From: a virus
Lineage: Duplodnaviria > Caudoviricetes
Strand: one strand, 5' to 3'
Virus record (IMG/VR): IMGVR_UViG_3300028886_000035
Location: 160,001-224,000 of that record
DNA: 64,000 bases
Shown here: positions 57,477 to 63,767 of the stretch, piece by piece
Layout of the letters: each line of letters begins with the position of its first letter
Numbering within the stretch: the first letter of the stretch is position 1
The notes under the pieces: model-generated
Databases searched by the model: none
Told to the model about the DNA's origin: nothing
The model's input: only the letters and a program-made list of their open reading frames with translations
Translations under genes and position numbers: made by a program

Positions 57477-57857
57477 TTATGAATTTAAAGTTTTCTTTAA
57501 AGTATTGCTAATTTTTTCTTTAATTTCAGGAGAGGGGTCATTTGCTTTTTTCACATTAAGCAAATCATAATCTTTTTCATACATTTCCGTATATAATTTC
57601 TCTAATTTATCTGCTTCATCTTGTGTACTGCAATCTACAATTGGAAGTATATCTAAATCATCAAAATCATATTTACTAATTTGTCTATCAGGATATGTAT
57701 AGTCCCCTGAATGATGTTGAATTAGTCTACGATGTAATGTATTCGTAGTTTGTCCAATATAAATTACATTATTTGTATTCTTATCTACAATTTTATAGAT
57801 ACAGAATTTTTTCTTATATTCTTTTTCCATATATAATTTTCCTTTTTTACGTCTCAT
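57477..57857 (-). CDS. free-standing GIY-YIG endonuclease (short)
   Basis: CIYKI...YIGQT...R...H, conserved E and N; short NUMOD3-like tail. Confidence 0.85.
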   Translation of the reverse strand: MRRKKGKLYMEKEYKKKFCIYKIVDKNTNNVIYIGQTTNTLHRRLIQHHSGDYTYPDRQISKYDFDDLDILPIVDCSTQDEADKLEKLYTEMYEKDYDLLNVKKANDPSPEIKEKISNTLKKTLNS

Positions 57858-57881
57858 ATTTCTCGTCTCTGTTTTTAAAAT

Positions 57882-58020: not shown

Positions 58021-61000
58021 TTACTTATCTGTACAACCACAACCAATATCGCGAATATTTACGTGAATATCTGTATCTTCACGAATTTCTTTATATCCGC
58101 AAATTGGGCAAGTGTCTCCATCAATAACTAATGTATTACCACATGAAGGACATCTGTCTACGGGGTGGTTGACTGCAAAGTAATTCATATTCTTATCGTG
58201 CATATATCTAATAACAGTTTCAAAAGCATCAAGATTTTTTAATGGGTCTCCATCCATTTCCAAATAGCTAATTACACCCGCATTACACAACTCATGATAT
58301 GGAGCTTCAATCTCAATTTTCTTTGCAGCTGAAATAGGATAGTAAACTGGAATATGCATACTGTTCGTAAAATATTCTCTATCCGTTACACCTTTAATAA
58401 CTCCATATTTCTTTCTTGTATCGCGAAGGAACGCACCAGCAGTTGATTCTGCCGGTGTCGCAAATAAACTAAAGTTTAAATGCGTTTCTTTCGCGTACTT
58501 ATCTGTCATTTCACGCATATGTTTAATAATTTCATATCCTAACTTACGCGCTTCTTCTGTTTCTCCATGATGTGAACCAATCAATGCTACAAGTGCTTCT
58601 GCCAATCCACAGAAACCAATTGAAATAGATGCTTGTTTTAATACAGGAGCAATTTCATCTGTCCATTTCAATTGTTCACTTGTATACCAAAGATGTTGTC
58701 CCATCAAGAATGGGAAATTATATACATGACGATGACCAATGCGTTCAAATCTCCAAAGAAGATTTTCTTTGCAAAGTTTCATGTATTTATCCAAAAGTTT
58801 ATAGAACTTTTTAATATCATGGTTTGCATCCAATGCCAACATAGGAAGATTAATGGTATCGAATGCAAAATTACCTCTTGATGAAGTAATTGGTTCGCCA
58901 TTCAAATTCATTTGAGTTTTGGTTCTACAGCCCCAGCGTAGCATTTTCTATATCACTATAGGTTCAGACTATATCACATACCTATAATTATAGGCATCTT
59001 TTCTTTTCCACTAACTCAAAAAGTGTACTCTACTTCCGTAGATAGTCGTTTAGCTTTTATTATTAATAAATGTGTTTAATTGTTTTTCTATATGTAGAAA
59101 CATAAAATTTTTTATTTTTGTAAATAAAATATCCACGTTTTATGATTCCATCTACAGATAAATATGATTTATCATAATAATCTGCAAATTGTTTTCTTTC
59201 ATCAAACTCTCTGATAACATTATTTCTATCTTTATCAGAATATATAATTATTGGACACCATGTTGTTTTATAATGATTTTTATGTACTTTTCTAAGACCA
59301 TTCTTAAATGCATGTTTATCATTTTCAGAACGAGTACACCATTCTAAATTGTCATATCTACAATTTAATTTATTTCCATCAATATGATTAACAACAAGTG
59401 TACTATAATTTATTGGTGGATTACAAAAATAATATGCAACTAATCTATGTATAAAAAATCTTTTATGTGGATTAGATAAACAAACACGTCTATATCCACA
59501 ATTATTTTTGTCTCCGATTAATAATCTTCCATCTTTATTTTTAACTTGTCCAAAATTACTAATTAAATATCTTCCATTATAACCTTTAATTTCTTTCCAT
59601 AGTTCTTGCATATTTCACCATTTATAAATAAATTTAGCACTAGATTACCTTAAAAATTTAAGGTTTCCTTGTTTAGAAAAGTTCTTCGATATACATTTCT
59701 GTATAAAGCCACAGGTTTGTTTATGGTTGCAATCTCAGTTCTATAATCATTTGGATTATAATATTGCATATTGTAAGGTGCGTCTTGATTTTCAAAATTC
59801 GCTTAAATAAATTATATTTCTATAATTCGCAGACTATCTCTTTACATCATATTGATGTATATTGCGCTTCCGCATAATTTTATGCGTACTAGGATTTCTC
59901 CTATAGTCGTTACACTTTATTTATTATTTATAATAAATTTTAGCACGGTATTGCCACTATCTATTAAAAATAGATTTAGGTTCTCTTACGAAGTTGCTTA
60001 AAACTTCTACCGTTTTCACAATATGTTTCTTACATTACTGTAAGCCCCAATGTTGTTTAGGGAACAGACGCTTTGCACTTACACGCATAGCTAATTTAAA
60101 TAAATCGTAATTCGGGTCACCAGGGTCATAACTAATACCCTTTTTAAGTCTAAATATAGTTATCATTTATACCGTTACTTTCGTAATATTTTAACCATTT
60201 CTTAAAGAAATGCGGATTAGACTATCTCTTTACATCATTATGATGTATATTGCACTTCCATATTTTAATAATATGTACTCCGTTCTCACGGATAGTCGTT
60301 ACATTTTAATTATTAATGCTAAAGAAATTCCAACCATGATAAGGTTTAAACAGCTTTTTATCCAATCGCAATTTAACACTACCTGGACTGAAATTATATA
60401 TTTTACAAAAATGTACAATTCCATGAATTATCATTAAATCATTATCTGGTGAAATAGCAATAAAATGTTTTGAATATTGTTCTGTGTTTCTATATTTAAT
60501 ATTTATTTCATTAGATATAAACATACAAGTATCTAAAGAATAAACTTTTTGTGATGGTAATAATCCTTTTTGCTTTATGTCTTTATCCAAACATAAAATT
60601 CCATCATTGAATTCTTTTTCATTATATCCATCAATTTTGGATAAATCTTCTAAAAAATATTCAAAACAATGCCATCTATTACAAACAGTAACACCTAATC
60701 CACCATATGAAGAAAAGTCTTTTTTGTTATGAGAATTATAACATCTACTTAACATATTTCTCCATAATGTGCAAGCGCGTTTATTCATTTTTGATGTTGC
60801 ATTTCCCATATATCCAATCCCATATAATGTTGGATAGAATAAATCTTTAATACAACCTTGATTCAATGCTTGCTTCAAAACAGTTCGTTTGCTATGTGTT
60901 CTTAGAAATTCAATTTCATAATAATGATTACCATTTTTTATATAATCATAATTAATTTTATATTCTAATCCTGTATTCGTTTTAAATATTTTATTCATTT

Positions 61001-63767
61001 TCTCACCTCCATTATATTTTATTTTAGCATTAATAAGTCTTAACACGGTATTACCACTATCCATTTAGGATTTAGGTTCTCTTACGAAGTCGATTAAAAC
61101 TTCTACCGTTTTCACAATATGTTTCTTACTGATTAAAGTAAGCCCCATTTATCTAGGGAAGATGCTCGTCTCGCCATGTCCTAATCCTGCTTCTTGTGCA
61201 AGCAGTAAATGCTTCATAGCTAAACGTCCTTCTTCAGACGTATCTAACCCAAAATTTAAGGAACTAAATGGCACTTGAGAGCCAGCTCTCGAATTATGAA
61301 CAAAAATACAATTAGATGTTAAGAAAGTCTCATTGTCTGCAACAGACATATCATAAACATATTCTTCTTCACTATTACTTTCCGTTACTTTTTCAATAAA
61401 TAATGGATATATATGTGAAGCAGGAATGAATTTATTATCATCAATTGCTTTTGTGTCAATAATTTCTTTTTTTACACGATTAAATTTTGGTTTCCTACCA
61501 TCAATATTACGACTTAATAAATTCTTCAAAAAATCAAAATCATAATAAATATATTCTGCTCGTACATTATTTTGATTTAAATCTTTCAAATTCAAACGAT
61601 TTGCAGTATTAGAATTAAAACTAATATCATATCCATTATATGTTCCATAAGACGTTTTCCTGTTATATGTATTGTGAATATGAGACATTTCATTCATTGA
61701 CAAAATCATTAATTGAATTTGAGAACGTAACGTTTCTGAAACAGTTGTAGCCCCAATATATGTTGGTTTTATACTACCATCACATTTAAAATACCCTTCC
61801 AAAAATGCAGATTGAACTTCTTTTGTTCCAAACATAATTTGCATTGGAATTTTTTTCTCATGTGCATTTCTACCGAAATAATATTTAAATGCGTCCGACC
61901 AAACTTTACCAACATTAAATCTTATATCCTTTGGTTTACCATTAGGCATAGAATATTTATTATATGTTACTTTTTCATTATAGCATTCTTTCATTAATGA
62001 TAACAATTCTTGTTCTTTAGTTTCATCACAAGTGGTAAAGCATAATTGACTATCACCAACAATAGAACCTTCTGCAACATAATACCCTGCCAATTTACCA
62101 AAAGAAGGATTTACTACAATATGATTTTCTGTATAATTTTGTTTTGTACGTGAATGGAATTTATCTAAACTAATATCATTTTTCACATTAAAAACAAAAT
62201 TTCTTGGCATTAATACATTTGGTACACTTTCAGGATAATCTTCAGCAATTTTACCTGCGTTATTAAGATACATTACTTTATGATTGTCTGTTGTCGTAAC
62301 TGATGCTCCTGATGTTGTATGAATTGTAATCAATCTACGATGATTATTTTTTCTTTCAATATCAGTAATATCTTTTAATTCTGCTACACCTGTATTTTGA
62401 TTTAATGAAATAGCCTGATAACGACCTTTTTCATAAATCTCATGTAGTTTACCAATTTGCATTACTTTTAATTCTTCTTCTTGTTTATCATAAACAAAAA
62501 TTGTTGAAGAATATGGTAAACAATGCATCGAATTTAGATTGAAAATAACGCTTTCCATAGCTTGATGTGTTTCTTCTTCTACACGCTTACAAGCCAGCTT
62601 ATAAGCATTTTTAAATAGCTTATTTAATTCTTTATCATCTGTTAGTTTATCAATGTTTTTATCATTTTTATACGTTGGATATTCGTTCTGTTTTTGTTTC
62701 AAAATCTCGTCTACAGTATCTTCTGATACATCAGAAACCATAGCAAGGTTTTTAGCACATTCCTCAAATTCTTTCTTAAAAGAACGTCTTACACCTTCTG
62801 CCATAGCTCTATCAAAGTCCTGAATTGATTGTCCACCAAACATGTTATTCTGCGAAGATTGCAACACGATGCAAGCTAAACTTGCAGCAGAACGAATACT
62901 TTGCGGTTCTCTAATATATGAGCTACCAATTTTAAAACCGTCTTTAAATGTCTTTTGTAAATCCACCTGGAGGCAGTTGAATGTTAGCTCTGAAAAATCC
63001 TTGTCCTCTCACAGTAGACAGTTGTCTATTGCAGATTGACTATATCATCTAAGATAGGCACTTCCACATATTTTTAACATATATGTACTCCATAAATGGA
63101 TAGTCGATTAACTTAATTTACAAAAAATGTAAATGTTAGCACAGGATTCTACTTATATAAAGTCATTCCCTGTTAGCACAATTTCTAAATGTCATTTCCT
63201 ACATTTCCTATACGTAAATTGTACACCTGATATTTTATCAGTTCACCTATTTTTTTATCCACAATAAGATTCATGGATATGAATATATCCTGCTCTATGA
63301 GCATCAATATATCTCTTCGGAATAATGTAATTATCATTAAAGAAATTACTTACTGTTGTCCCATAAATTAACATTGAACCCATTGGTTCATCTGATTGAA
63401 TATTAGCATTACTACGTTTGTAATCTGATTCTTCACCAGATTGAAATGTAATATCCATCATTTTTTTCATAAGTTCTTCATGTGTATCACGAATTTTTGC
63501 GTGTTCCGAACGATAAATAATATACGATTTAGCAGTATGTTCCCAATTTGACTTCATGAGAACATTTTCCACTTCGTCTTGAATACTTTCTACTGAAGGT
63601 GCTTTTACATCTTCAAATTTTTCTTCAATCTGACTTACCATCCCCCAAATAATCGAATTATTCATTCTCTTATCTTTGGAATCATTGTTAGCTTTCTTAA
63701 TCGCATTAAATATCTTATGCGAATCGTAGTCAACAACTTTTCCATTACGTTTTCTTACTTTTTGCAA
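58021..63767 (-). CDS. nrdD: anaerobic (class III) ribonucleotide reductase, large part; exons 63767-63273, 63005-61155, 60163-60059, 59799-59723, 58933-58021; ~736 aa after intron and intein removal
   Basis: ATP cone; junctions restore IHIH|DKDF..NC, IFP|ITIF, RLFP|NF, TM|GCRT; ATPAE, YFTNS, CPSC..CPIC; probable TTG start after AGGAG; no RxxGY. Confidence 0.93.
58934..59722 (-). mobile_element. group I intron 4 (789 nt) splitting the Met codon of MGCR
   Basis: AT|G junction, P1 CCAU/GUGG, R AACGACUAUC, S GAUAUAGUC, terminal G. Confidence 0.9.
59063..59611 (-). CDS. intron-encoded NUMOD4-HNH homing endonuclease
   Basis: ELWKEI.GY...Y.ISN.G.V; HRLVA..F; VNHIDGNK.N....NLEW. Confidence 0.92.
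   Translation of the reverse strand: MQELWKEIKGYNGRYLISNFGQVKNKDGRLLIGDKNNCGYRRVCLSNPHKRFFIHRLVAYYFCNPPINYSTLVVNHIDGNKLNCRYDNLEWCTRSENDKHAFKNGLRKVHKNHYKTTWCPIIIYSDKDRNNVIREFDERKQFADYYDKSYLSVDGIIKRGYFIYKNKKFYVSTYRKTIKHIY
59800..60058 (-). mobile_element. group I intron 3 (259 nt, no ORF), sister of intron 2
   Basis: follows TTCCCT; R AACGACUAU, S AAGAGAUAGUC; terminal G. Confidence 0.9.
60164..61154 (-). mobile_element. group I intron 2 (991 nt) with endonuclease ORF
   Basis: follows TTCCCT; P1 with GGGG; R/S motifs; terminal G. Confidence 0.9.
60306..60998 (-). CDS. intron-encoded HNH-related endonuclease
   Basis: W.NML.RCY, YGG.GV.VC.RW..F..F..D, LDKD, YS..TC; GGAGGTGA RBS before ATG 60998. 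Confidence 0.8.
   Translation of the reverse strand: MNKIFKTNTGLEYKINYDYIKNGNHYYEIEFLRTHSKRTVLKQALNQGCIKDLFYPTLYGIGYMGNATSKMNKRACTLWRNMLSRCYNSHNKKDFSSYGGLGVTVCNRWHCFEYFLEDLSKIDGYNEKEFNDGILCLDKDIKQKGLLPSQKVYSLDTCMFISNEINIKYRNTEQYSKHFIAISPDNDLMIIHGIVHFCKIYNFSPGSVKLRLDKKLFKPYHGWNFFSINN
61293..62522 (-). mobile_element. intein (410 aa) with LAGLIDADG endonuclease in NrdD
   Basis: H|CLP...TTDNH (block B)...LAGYYVAEG...FLEGYFKCDG...VYDMSV...VHN|S. Confidence 0.93.
63006..63272 (-). mobile_element. group I intron 1 (267 nt, no ORF)
   Basis: P1 AUCCAU/GUGGAU; R AUCGACUAUCC; S AUGAUAUAGUC; terminal G; removal restores IHIHD. Confidence 0.9.

What the first reader, a model, noticed from the sequence alone, without database searches (positions are those of the whole stretch)
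59800..61154. Sister group I introns 105 nt apart, both inserted after TTCCCT
Seen: introns 2 and 3 share long near-identical blocks (TGGGGCTTAC..GTAAGAAACATATTGTGAAAACGGTAGAAGTTTTAA..ACTTCGTAAGAGAACCTAAATC..GATAGTGG.AATACCGTG; GTAACGACTAT; GCAATATACATCA..ATGATGTAAAGAGATAGTCT). Both follow Phe-Pro codons TTC CCT. Intron 2 carries an endonuclease inside a TTATTAATGCT/AGCATTAATAA stem; intron 3 has no ORF. Established: reverse splicing targets sites matching the internal guide sequence. Inference: intragenic intron transposition guided by the shared 5' exon hexamer. Identical 5' splice contexts might also allow in-frame skipping of the 35-codon exon.
Basis: partly seen in the sequence, partly recalled or inferred. 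Interest (0 to 1): 0.72.

Follow-up and report, generated by a model that had tools for sequence, protein, structure and literature searches.

The report
Related self-splicing introns in phage nrdD
Two related self-splicing group I introns sit 105 bases apart in the anaerobic ribonucleotide reductase gene of a rumen jumbo phage; both are spliced in nature, and the upstream one looks like a patchwork copy of the downstream one that reached a second matching site and is now spreading.

Summary
Introns 2 (60164-61154) and 3 (59800-60058) on the minus strand are IA2-type group I introns. Both follow TTCCCT, both carry the guide GGGG, and they flank a 105-nt exon. Removing all four nrdD introns gives one open 1146-codon frame. 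Contigs from two rumen metatranscriptome studies carry the exact exon joints, with exon 3 included. No exon-3-skipped joint was seen.

"Sister introns" is only partly right. Over P1-P6 and P3'-P8-P7', intron 2 is 83-93% identical to intron 3. Its P7.1/P7.2 and P9 tail instead match an intron found at another nrdD site (after residue 626) in close relatives. Site 3 is occupied in ten related contigs. Site 2 is empty, reading CCG rather than CCT, in five related contigs. Intron 2 is 98-100% identical across four strain backgrounds whose exons differ more, so it is spreading by homing.

The likeliest history is a copy of the site-3 core placed at a second CCCU site. This direction runs opposite to what the ORF suggests. 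Reverse splicing fits, because the two sites share only TTCCCT|A, but it is unproven. The phage encodes no reverse transcriptase, and the 3' tail was not copied.

Twort orf142 and rDNA introns are precedents, so this is a new member of a known kind.

The parts
61155..61160 (-). Last six bases of exon 2 (TTCCCT, Phe-Pro). CCCU pairs with the guide sequence of intron 2, and U at -1 forms the U.G wobble pair.
60164..61154 (-). Intron 2: a 991-nt IA2-type group I intron. It begins AGATAAATGGGG and ends with a terminal G (...GGTATAAATG). It is spliced in vivo.
   Evidence: Boundaries. Exact joint in RNA runs X6 and X7. Fold of the ORF-less core.
61143..61146 (-). Internal guide sequence GGGG of intron 2 (3' strand of P1)
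61026..61036 (-). 5' arm of the extended P6 stem (TTATTAATGCT) that encloses the ORF
60306..60998 (-). Intron-2 ORF: 230 aa, preceded by GGAGGTGAG. It matches PHROG 2081 'HNH endonuclease' (E 3.7e-51) and has no Pfam hit. Its last codons overlap the 3' arm of P6.
60310..60320 (-). 3' arm of the extended P6 stem (AGCATTAATAA)
60292..60297 (-). P7 5' strand (GACTAT) of intron 2, inside the conserved R-like element GTAACGACTAT
60220..60225 (-). P7 3' strand (ATAGTC) of intron 2, inside the S-like element AAAGAGATAGTCT
60164..60218 (-). 3' tail of intron 2 (P9 region, 55 nt). It is 84-87% identical to the tail of the residue-626 introns of L156 and L159, and only 44% identical to the tail of intron 3.
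60059..60163 (-). Exon 3: 105 nt, 35 codons (ITIFRLKKGISYDPGDPNYDLFKLAMRVSAKRLFP). It ends TTCCCT and encodes a conserved core segment of NrdD.
59800..60058 (-). Intron 3: a 259-nt ORF-less IA2-type group I intron. It begins AAACAACATTGGGG and ends ...TTTAAGCG. It is spliced in vivo.
   Evidence: Boundaries. Fold (z -3.45). Exact joint in RNA runs X6 and X7.
60045..60048 (-). Internal guide sequence GGGG of intron 3
59903..59908 (-). P7 5' strand (GACTAT) of intron 3
59832..59837 (-). P7 3' strand (ATAGTC) of intron 3
59723..59799 (-). Exon 4: 77 nt (NFENQ...EIAT plus AT), lying between intron 3 and intron 4

Best explanation
Shown: introns 2 and 3 are working IA2-type group I ribozymes in the nrdD gene of a 281-kb rumen phage. 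Each forms P1 between exon CCCU and its guide GGGG, ends in a terminal G, and is removed precisely in vivo.

Inferred: site 3 (after ...RLFP) is an old insertion site that many relatives fill with members of one intron family. Intron 2 is a younger, composite element. Its P1-P6 and P3'-P8-P7' modules, guide included, descend from the W/L156 subtype of the site-3 intron. Its P7.1/P7.2 and P9 tail come from the type of intron that close relatives carry after residue 626 of the same gene.

The composite was placed at one of only two other CCCU sites in the mRNA, 105 nt upstream. The allele there reads CCT instead of the usual CCG. The intron carries a PHROG-2081 endonuclease gene in P6 and is now spreading among related phages by ordinary homing.

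The first ectopic step is best explained by guide-directed reverse splicing into nrdD RNA, followed by copying back to DNA and then recombination between introns. A purely DNA-level recombination route is not excluded.

Skipping of exon 3 is chemically possible, but it would delete a conserved core segment and was not seen.
For: Structure:
- The minimum-energy fold of intron 3 independently recovers P1, P2, P3, P4, P5, P5a, P6, P7.1, P7.2, P8 and P9 (z -3.45; 0 of 200 shuffles fold as well). The ORF-less core of intron 2 folds the same way.
- In 14 family members, 13 of the 14 variable pairs in P7.1, P7.2 and P8 change on both sides. No shuffle in 500 reaches the observed covariation, and slid controls fall far below it. 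P7 is invariant.

Splicing:
- Exact joints for introns 2, 3 and 4 appear in RNA runs of two studies, and intron 1 in one of them. One 619-nt RNA contig joins exon 2-3-4-5. The exact spliced junctions did not appear in the two runs guessed to be DNA; X15 carries near-site joints that are offset.

Paralogy and mosaic:
- Module identities of intron 2 to intron 3 are 83, 86, 65, 93 and 44% for P1-P3, P4-P5, P7-P7.2, P3'-P8-P7' and the tail. To the residue-626 introns they are 40, 54, 74-78, 74 and 84-87%.
- The core tree joins the site-2 introns with the W/L156-type site-3 introns (UFBoot 88-92). The tree of peripheral modules does not.
- The short P2 (CTTAC/GTAAG) and the short P5 hairpin are shared only by intron 2 and the W/L156-type site-3 introns.

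Polarity:
- Site 3 is occupied in L142, L143, L156, L158, L339, L341, L343-345 and L347-349.
- Site 2 is empty and reads TTCCCG|AT in L156, L158, L142, L143 and L144, and in an allele seen in run X15.

Target:
- CCCT occurs three times and TTCCCT twice in the CDS. The two sites share only TTCCCT|A.

Spread:
- Intron 2 is 98-100% identical in four backgrounds whose flanking exons are 87-98% identical. CCT is always present with the intron.
Against: - A clean reverse-splicing copy would carry the donor's whole 3' tail. It does not, so at least one extra recombination event is needed.
- No RVT_1 reverse transcriptase was found in the 98%-complete phage record.
- A site-2 intron with the same guide exists in a distant phage (L042). 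Independent acquisition followed by gene conversion is therefore possible.
- Bootstrap support is moderate (88-92) on about 150 columns.
- Any mobility route would leave P1 complementarity, because only insertions that can splice survive in an essential gene.
- Rfam's Intron_gpI model does not score these introns.
Confidence: 0.62

Rival explanations
1. Independent site-specific lineages followed by concerted evolution. Intron 2 arrived at site 2 by ordinary homing from another phage that already carried a site-2 intron. Its core was later overwritten by gene conversion from intron 3, which lies only 105 nt away.
For: - L042/L209 carry an intron at exactly AGCATCTTCCCT| with the guide GGGGC and a tail 72% identical to that of intron 2.
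- Recombination among these introns is evident. The P4-P5 module of window intron 3 is 86% identical to intron 2 but only 75% identical to its own orthologue in L156, while its flanks are 98-100% identical to L156.
- Intron 2 is a homing element today.
Against: - The L042 core is only 34-54% identical to intron 2.
- The tail type is not specific to site 2: it also occurs at residues 626 and 213 and at site 3.
- No close relative carries a non-site-3-like intron at site 2; where intron 2 is absent the site is empty and reads CCG.
- Exon divergence around site 2 between the window and L156 is average, with no foreign co-conversion tract.
Confidence: 0.2
2. Transposition in the direction the ORF suggests. 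The endonuclease-bearing intron 2 is the parent, and ORF-less intron 3 is its degenerate copy at site 3.
For: - Intron 2 carries the only endonuclease gene of the pair.
- The P6 loop of intron 3 (TAAA) equals that of an ORF-less intron-2 variant seen in RNA run X6.
- The P4-P5 module of intron 3 is intron-2-like.
Against: - Site 3 is occupied by diverse family members in relatives down to 76% amino-acid identity, whereas intron 2 is confined to a few close strains.
- Intron 3 is 95-100% identical to the L156 site-3 intron in four of five modules.
Confidence: 0.06
3. DNA-level ectopic homing. An endonuclease with relaxed specificity cut near site 2, and the break was repaired from the site-3 intron copy with no RNA intermediate.
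For: - The locus is rich in endonuclease genes: HNH ORFs in introns 2 and 4 and in the site-3 introns of relatives, and a LAGLIDADG intein.
- No reverse transcriptase is encoded by the phage.
- Module shuffling shows frequent DNA recombination.
- The review PMC3984707 lists relaxed endonuclease specificity as an alternative route.
Against: - The two sites share only 7 nt, and their flanks match at chance level. This gives neither a common endonuclease target nor homology for repair.
- A precise insertion that splices correctly is hard to obtain by illegitimate recombination.
Confidence: 0.12

Closest known systems
Staphylococcus phage Twort orf142: three similar group I introns in one gene, with exon skipping (Landthaler & Shub 1999, as cited in PMC3073962 and PMC11878797)
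   Same: Several similar IA2-type phage group I introns are packed in one protein-coding gene with short exons between them. Similar guide and exon contexts make exon skipping conceivable.
   Different: Here the host gene is nrdD of an uncultured rumen jumbo phage. The two introns share an identical guide and a TTCCCT context. One of them is a demonstrable mosaic with population polymorphism. No skipped product was seen in the RNA contigs. I could not read the Twort paper itself, so the comparison rests on citing reviews.
Related nuclear rDNA group I introns at neighbouring sites, taken as circumstantial evidence for reverse-splicing spread (Bhattacharya et al. 2005, PMC1299323; review PMC3984707)
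   Same: Related introns sit at heterologous sites within one gene. The target needs only the 4-6 nt that pair with the guide. There is no direct proof of the pathway.
   Different: This case is a phage protein-coding gene. The copy is not whole, because the tail and P7.1/7.2 come from another family member. The new copy now carries a homing endonuclease gene and spreads by homing.
Phage and Bacillus ribonucleotide reductase genes as hot spots for introns and inteins (T4 nrdD/sunY and nrdB, SPbeta bnrdE/F, B. cereus group nrdE IVS2-5; PMC2504315)
   Same: Multiple insertion sites at conserved motifs, introns and inteins together, and presence or absence that varies among strains.
   Different: In the B. 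cereus group the nrdE introns belong to different structural subclasses of separate origin (PMC2504315). Here many sites are filled by one family that exchanges modules.
PHROG 2081 intron-encoded 'HNH endonucleases' in DNA polymerase introns of Bastillevirinae (PMC11878797)
   Same: The intron-2 ORF matches PHROG 2081 (E 3.7e-51) and lies in a peripheral loop of a group I intron.
   Different: The host gene differs. The ORF has no Pfam HNH or NUMOD hit, and its activity and target are untested.

Membership tests
Group I intron (subgroup IA2-like) | P1 helix between the 5' exon end and an internal guide sequence, with U at -1 in a U.G pair | tested here: met
   Exon CCCU pairs with GGGG in both introns. 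P1 is recovered by the minimum-energy fold.
Group I intron (subgroup IA2-like) | Terminal G at the 3' end of the intron | tested here: met
   Both introns end in G (...AAATG...AAGCG). For all 31 junctions mapped in relatives, a best-scoring boundary with T at -1 and a terminal G was found; the mapping script considered only such boundaries.
Group I intron (subgroup IA2-like) | Conserved core P3-P8 with a P3/P7 pseudoknot and R/S-like elements; P7.1 and P7.2 between P7 and P3' | tested here: met
   All 74 pairs of the manual model are standard pairs. Covariation supports P7.1, P7.2 and P8 (0 of 500 shuffles). P7 is invariant, so it is uninformative.
Group I intron (subgroup IA2-like) | Match to the curated Rfam model Intron_gpI (RF00028) | tested here: not met
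   No hit at the gathering score or at E up to 10. PMC11878797 states that the Rfam gpI model is incomplete for phage introns.
Group I intron (subgroup IA2-like) | Precise excision from RNA with ligation of the exons | tested here: met
   Exact joints appear in metatranscriptome contigs of two studies. The exact junction reading CCT did not appear in the two runs guessed to be DNA.
Group I intron (subgroup IA2-like) | Protein-independent self-splicing started by exogenous guanosine | not testable with these tools
   Needs in vitro transcription and a GTP-labelling assay.
Reverse-splicing-mediated ectopic transposition | Related introns at heterologous sites whose only shared target sequence is the guide-complementary 4-6 nt | tested here: met
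   The core is 83-93% identical. The sites share only TTCCCT|A, and the flanks match at 26% against 29% expected by chance.
Reverse-splicing-mediated ectopic transposition | The whole intron is copied, 3' end included | tested here: not met
   The tail is 44% and P7-P7.2 is 65% identical to intron 3, but 84-87% and 74-78% identical to the residue-626 introns.
Reverse-splicing-mediated ectopic transposition | No co-conversion of flanking exons at the new site | tested here: inconclusive
   Divergence from L156 around site 2 is average. However, T at -1 always travels with the intron.
Reverse-splicing-mediated ectopic transposition | A reverse transcriptase is available to copy the recombinant RNA | tested here: not met
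   No RVT_1 match in the 98%-complete phage record. A host enzyme cannot be excluded.
HNH homing endonuclease (intron-2 ORF) | Family match and catalytic HNH motif | tested here: inconclusive
   PHROG 2081 match at E 3.7e-51. No Pfam family at E up to 0.01. The catalytic residues were not examined.

The most novel reading that the evidence does not exclude
The population data catch the birth of a new mobile intron. A ribozyme core with its guide sequence was re-used at a second CCCU site of the same mRNA by reverse splicing. That site was made available by a synonymous CCG-to-CCT change. The copy was patched with modules from a sibling intron, armed with a different endonuclease gene, and is now sweeping through related rumen and pig-gut phages. 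This would be the clearest natural case for RNA-guided ectopic transposition of a group I intron in a protein-coding gene.
Probability: 0.3. Interest if true: 0.72.

Novelty: new member of a known kind. Interest (0 to 1): 0.5.

Why it matters
How group I introns reach new sites is still open. The review PMC3984707 says there is no direct evidence for reverse-splicing mobility, and that the best circumstantial cases are related rDNA introns at two sites.

This locus offers a protein-coding example with unusually rich natural controls:
- occupied and empty alleles that differ at the splice-site base (CCT against CCG);
- forms of the intron with and without the ORF;
- several sibling introns at one site;
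- RNA evidence of splicing.

It also shows that phage group I introns evolve by swapping modules, and that Rfam's model misses this whole family. The system could be rebuilt from synthetic DNA for direct reverse-splicing and endonuclease assays.

Tried and rejected
- Rfam cmscan at the gathering score and at E up to 10 found no group I hit. I judged this a gap in the model, not evidence against the intron.
- The pattern ACGGTAGAAG-N10-CTTCGTAAGAGAACC in viral contigs gave 0 hits.
- The pattern CCCT-N6-12-TGGGGCTTAC in viral contigs gave 117 loci. None resembled the introns by blastn, so they are chance matches.
- megablast and blastn against GenBank phages gave only a 58-nt and a 72-nt weak match: Clostridioides phages, and an unannotated Staphylococcus phage PT1-1 intron.
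- The exact-protein look-up of the 230-aa intron-2 ORF found nothing. The 252-aa gene-call form and its cluster did give contexts.
- Landthaler & Shub 1999 (PMC22036) is not held in the library.
- An exon 2 to exon 4 joint (exon-3 skipping) was absent from the contigs of RNA runs X6 and X7. Contigs drop rare forms, so this does not exclude low-level skipping.
- The joints 59390>60985, 59511>59920 and 60623>60917 have sides of only 21 nt. I treated them as cross-matches among endonuclease genes.
- I considered assembly chimerism between the two introns and rejected it. Independent contigs from several samples and assemblers reproduce both introns and their order.
Full report
**Setting**

The window is bases 160001-224000 of a 281,186-bp IMG/VR phage record that is 98% complete and about 29% G+C. 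On the minus strand, from 63767 to 58021, lies nrdD, the gene for anaerobic ribonucleotide reductase.

tblastn with the uninterrupted NrdD of Clostridium phage phiCD211 and of an Eggerthella phage maps five exons:
- exon 1 runs to 63273;
- intron 1 is 63272-63006;
- exon 2 is 63005-61155 and holds a 410-residue intein at 62522-61293;
- intron 2 is 61154-60164;
- exon 3 is 60163-60059;
- intron 3 is 60058-59800;
- exon 4 is 59799-59723;
- intron 4 is 59722-58934;
- exon 5 is 58933-58021.

Joining the exons gives one open frame of 3441 nt.

**The observation**

- Exon 2 ends ATCTTCCCT and exon 3 ends CTGTTCCCT. Exon 3 is 105 nt, or 35 codons.
- The two introns align at 86% over 121-122 nt at the 5' end (E 6e-33) and at 79-80% over about 100 nt at the 3' end (E 1e-15).
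- Over the ORF-less cores they are 79% identical. Every other pair among the four nrdD introns is 46-51% identical.
- A scan of the phage record for the R/S-like P7 motifs of this family found only these four introns.
- TTCCCT occurs exactly twice in the spliced CDS, against 0.24 expected, and both copies are occupied. CCCT occurs three times.
- Only CCCU pairs with the guide GGGG. The next guide bases belong to P2.

**They are group I introns, and they work**

The minimum-energy fold of intron 3 with short exon flanks recovers P1 (CCCUAA/UUGGGG), P2, P3, P4, P5, a P5a-like hairpin with a receptor-like internal loop, P6, P7.1, P7.2, P8 and P9. Its z-score is -3.45, and none of 200 shuffles folds as well. 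With P7 (GACUAU/AUAGUC) added as the pseudoknot, all 74 pairs of the model are standard pairs. The ORF-less core of intron 2 folds in the same way.

In an alignment of 14 family members, P7.1, P7.2 and P8 show changes on both sides in 13 of their 14 variable pairs. No shuffle in 500 reaches the observed covariation, and slid controls fall far below it. P7 never varies.

Rfam finds nothing, even at E up to 10. A 2025 survey of phage introns states that the Rfam group I model is incomplete (PMC11878797).

The direct evidence comes from contigs of two bovine-gut metatranscriptome runs belonging to two studies. They carry joints that skip exactly 789, 259 and 991 nt at the predicted boundaries of introns 4, 3 and 2, and one run also shows the 267-nt skip of intron 1. 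One 619-nt RNA contig joins the end of exon 2, exon 3, exon 4 and exon 5, with no mismatch in its listed exon-5 piece. These exact junctions, which read CCT at site 2, are absent from the two runs guessed to be DNA.

**Relatives change the story**

One metagenome scan with the exon-5 protein returned contigs 69-100% identical in protein. I mapped their exon boundaries by protein alignment, allowing only boundaries with T at -1 and a terminal G.

L156 is 92% identical in nucleotides over the spliced, intein-free CDS. It differs from the window as follows:
- it has no intron at site 2, where it reads ATCTTCCCG|ATAACT;
- it lacks the window's intein but has another intein at TFN|CLQ;
- at site 3 it carries an 840-nt intron with the same 5' and 3' ends as window intron 3, plus a NUMOD4/HNH-like ORF in P6;
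- it has further introns after residues 221, 593 and 626.

L158, L142 and L143 (76-82% protein identity) also fill site 3, with more distant members of the family, and leave site 2 empty with CCG. L144 is empty at both sites, L141 is empty at site 3, and site 2 was not resolved in L141.

Among about 150 nrdD loci, site 2 was otherwise filled only in the distant L042/L209.

**Intron 2 is a mosaic**

I cut the introns at conserved anchors into five modules. The table gives the identity of intron 2 to two comparators.

| Module | to window intron 3 | to the residue-626 introns of L156/L159 |
|---|---|---|
| P1-P3 | 83% | 40% |
| P4-P5-P4' | 86% | 53-54% |
| P7-P7.2 | 65% | 74-78% |
| P3'-P8-P7' | 93% | 74% |
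| P9 tail | 44% | 84-87% |

- A tree of the three core modules joins the site-2 introns with the W/L156-type site-3 introns (UFBoot 88-92). A tree of the two peripheral modules separates them.
- The short P2 and short P5 hairpins are shared only by intron 2 and the W/L156-type site-3 introns. Other site-3 introns have longer versions.
- Window intron 3 is 100, 75, 95, 98 and 100% identical to its L156 orthologue across the same five modules. Its P4-P5 module is closer to intron 2 (86%). At least one further exchange between family members has therefore occurred.

**Intron 2 is mobile today**

The 252-aa gene-call form of its ORF belongs to a cluster of 17 proteins. Their contigs show intron 2 at 98-100% identity in four exon backgrounds: the window, pig-gut L339-342, L343-346 and L347-349. 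In those backgrounds the 117 nt upstream are 87-98% identical and exon 3 is 91-97% identical.

These strains fill site 3 with three different family members: the ORF-less window type, the L156 type with an ORF, and a 922-nt L339 type.

Every allele with intron 2 reads CCT at -1, and every empty allele reads CCG. An RNA-run contig also shows an ORF-less intron 2 whose P6 loop (TAAA) equals that of intron 3.

**Mechanism**

What is shown:
- two working ribozymes with the same guide;
- paralogy of their cores;
- the mosaic make-up of intron 2;
- the greater age of site 3;
- the present-day spread of intron 2.

What is inferred is how the core first reached site 2.

For reverse splicing:
- The two targets share only TTCCCT|A, and their flanks match at chance level.
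- The mRNA offers only three CCCU sites.
- An RNA-guided insertion is precise by construction.

Against reverse splicing:
- The tail and P7.1/7.2 were not copied from the site-3 intron.
- The phage encodes no RVT_1 reverse transcriptase.
- Any surviving insertion must fit the guide, whatever the route.

The review PMC3984707 notes that this pathway has no direct experimental support, and that relaxed endonuclease specificity is the alternative.

I give about 0.62 to [quoted passage not shown]. I give about 0.2 to [quoted passage not shown].

**Exon skipping**

The identical guide and exon ends make skipping chemically conceivable, and Twort orf142 is the precedent (PMC3073962). The RNA contigs show only the normal exon 2-3-4 product.

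Exon 3 aligns with a strongly conserved stretch of solved NrdD structures (8P23 residues about 354-388). A skipped product would therefore probably be inactive. That last step is inference.

**Verdict**

The feature is real and well behaved. It is a new member of a known kind, with a richer and partly different history from the one proposed.

Noticed in passing
window 61293-62522 (minus strand): A 410-residue intein (CLPY...FVHN|S) with LAGLIDADG-type hits in relatives' gene calls interrupts NrdD at NSMH|SRAG. A contig about 90% identical in RNA run X7 skips exactly 1230 nt here, so relatives without the intein exist.
   Followed up: partly
L156:2813-4162: The 92%-identical relative carries a different 450-residue intein at TFN|CLQ, 10 codons after intron 1, and lacks the window's intein. 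The pig-gut strain L339 has both.
   Followed up: partly
L141-L159, L339-L349 (nrdD loci): Across close relatives, nrdD is interrupted at ten or more intron sites (after residues 165, 213, 221, 333, 372, 407, 434, 593, 626 and others) plus two intein sites. Many introns belong to one family that shares GTAACGACTAT...ATAGTCT and exchanges modules. L156 alone has six introns and one intein.
   Followed up: partly
window 59800-60058; run X15: One contig joins exon 3 to exon 4 leaving a 4-nt 'AAAG' footprint (the first three and the last base of intron 3). This would shift the reading frame. Its origin is unexplained.
   Followed up: no
window 58934-59722 (intron 4); L156:6696-6999; L343-345: Intron 4 (789 nt, NUMOD4/HNH_3 ORF) exists as a 304-nt ORF-less form in L156 and is absent altogether in L343-345 and L339. 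Like intron 1, it follows CCAT and has the guide GUGG, yet the two are only 46% identical.
   Followed up: partly
L140:1353-1720 (287,868-bp viral contig): A member of the same intron family interrupts a topoisomerase-like gene of another jumbo phage at ...LLSD|, with a different guide (GUCCG). The family is therefore not confined to nrdD.
   Followed up: partly
window 57477-57881 and downstream to about 56400: A GIY-YIG-like ORF follows nrdD, and NrdD ends ...DIGCGCTDK without an obvious glycyl-radical motif. Earlier notes of this scan propose a separate glycyl-radical mini-gene with a fifth intron. Gene calls in relatives show small NRDD/Gly_radical ORFs after the main gene.
   Followed up: no
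window 59800-63272: Rfam 15 Intron_gpI does not detect any of the four spliced introns, even at E up to 10. This whole phage intron family is invisible to the standard model.
   Followed up: yes
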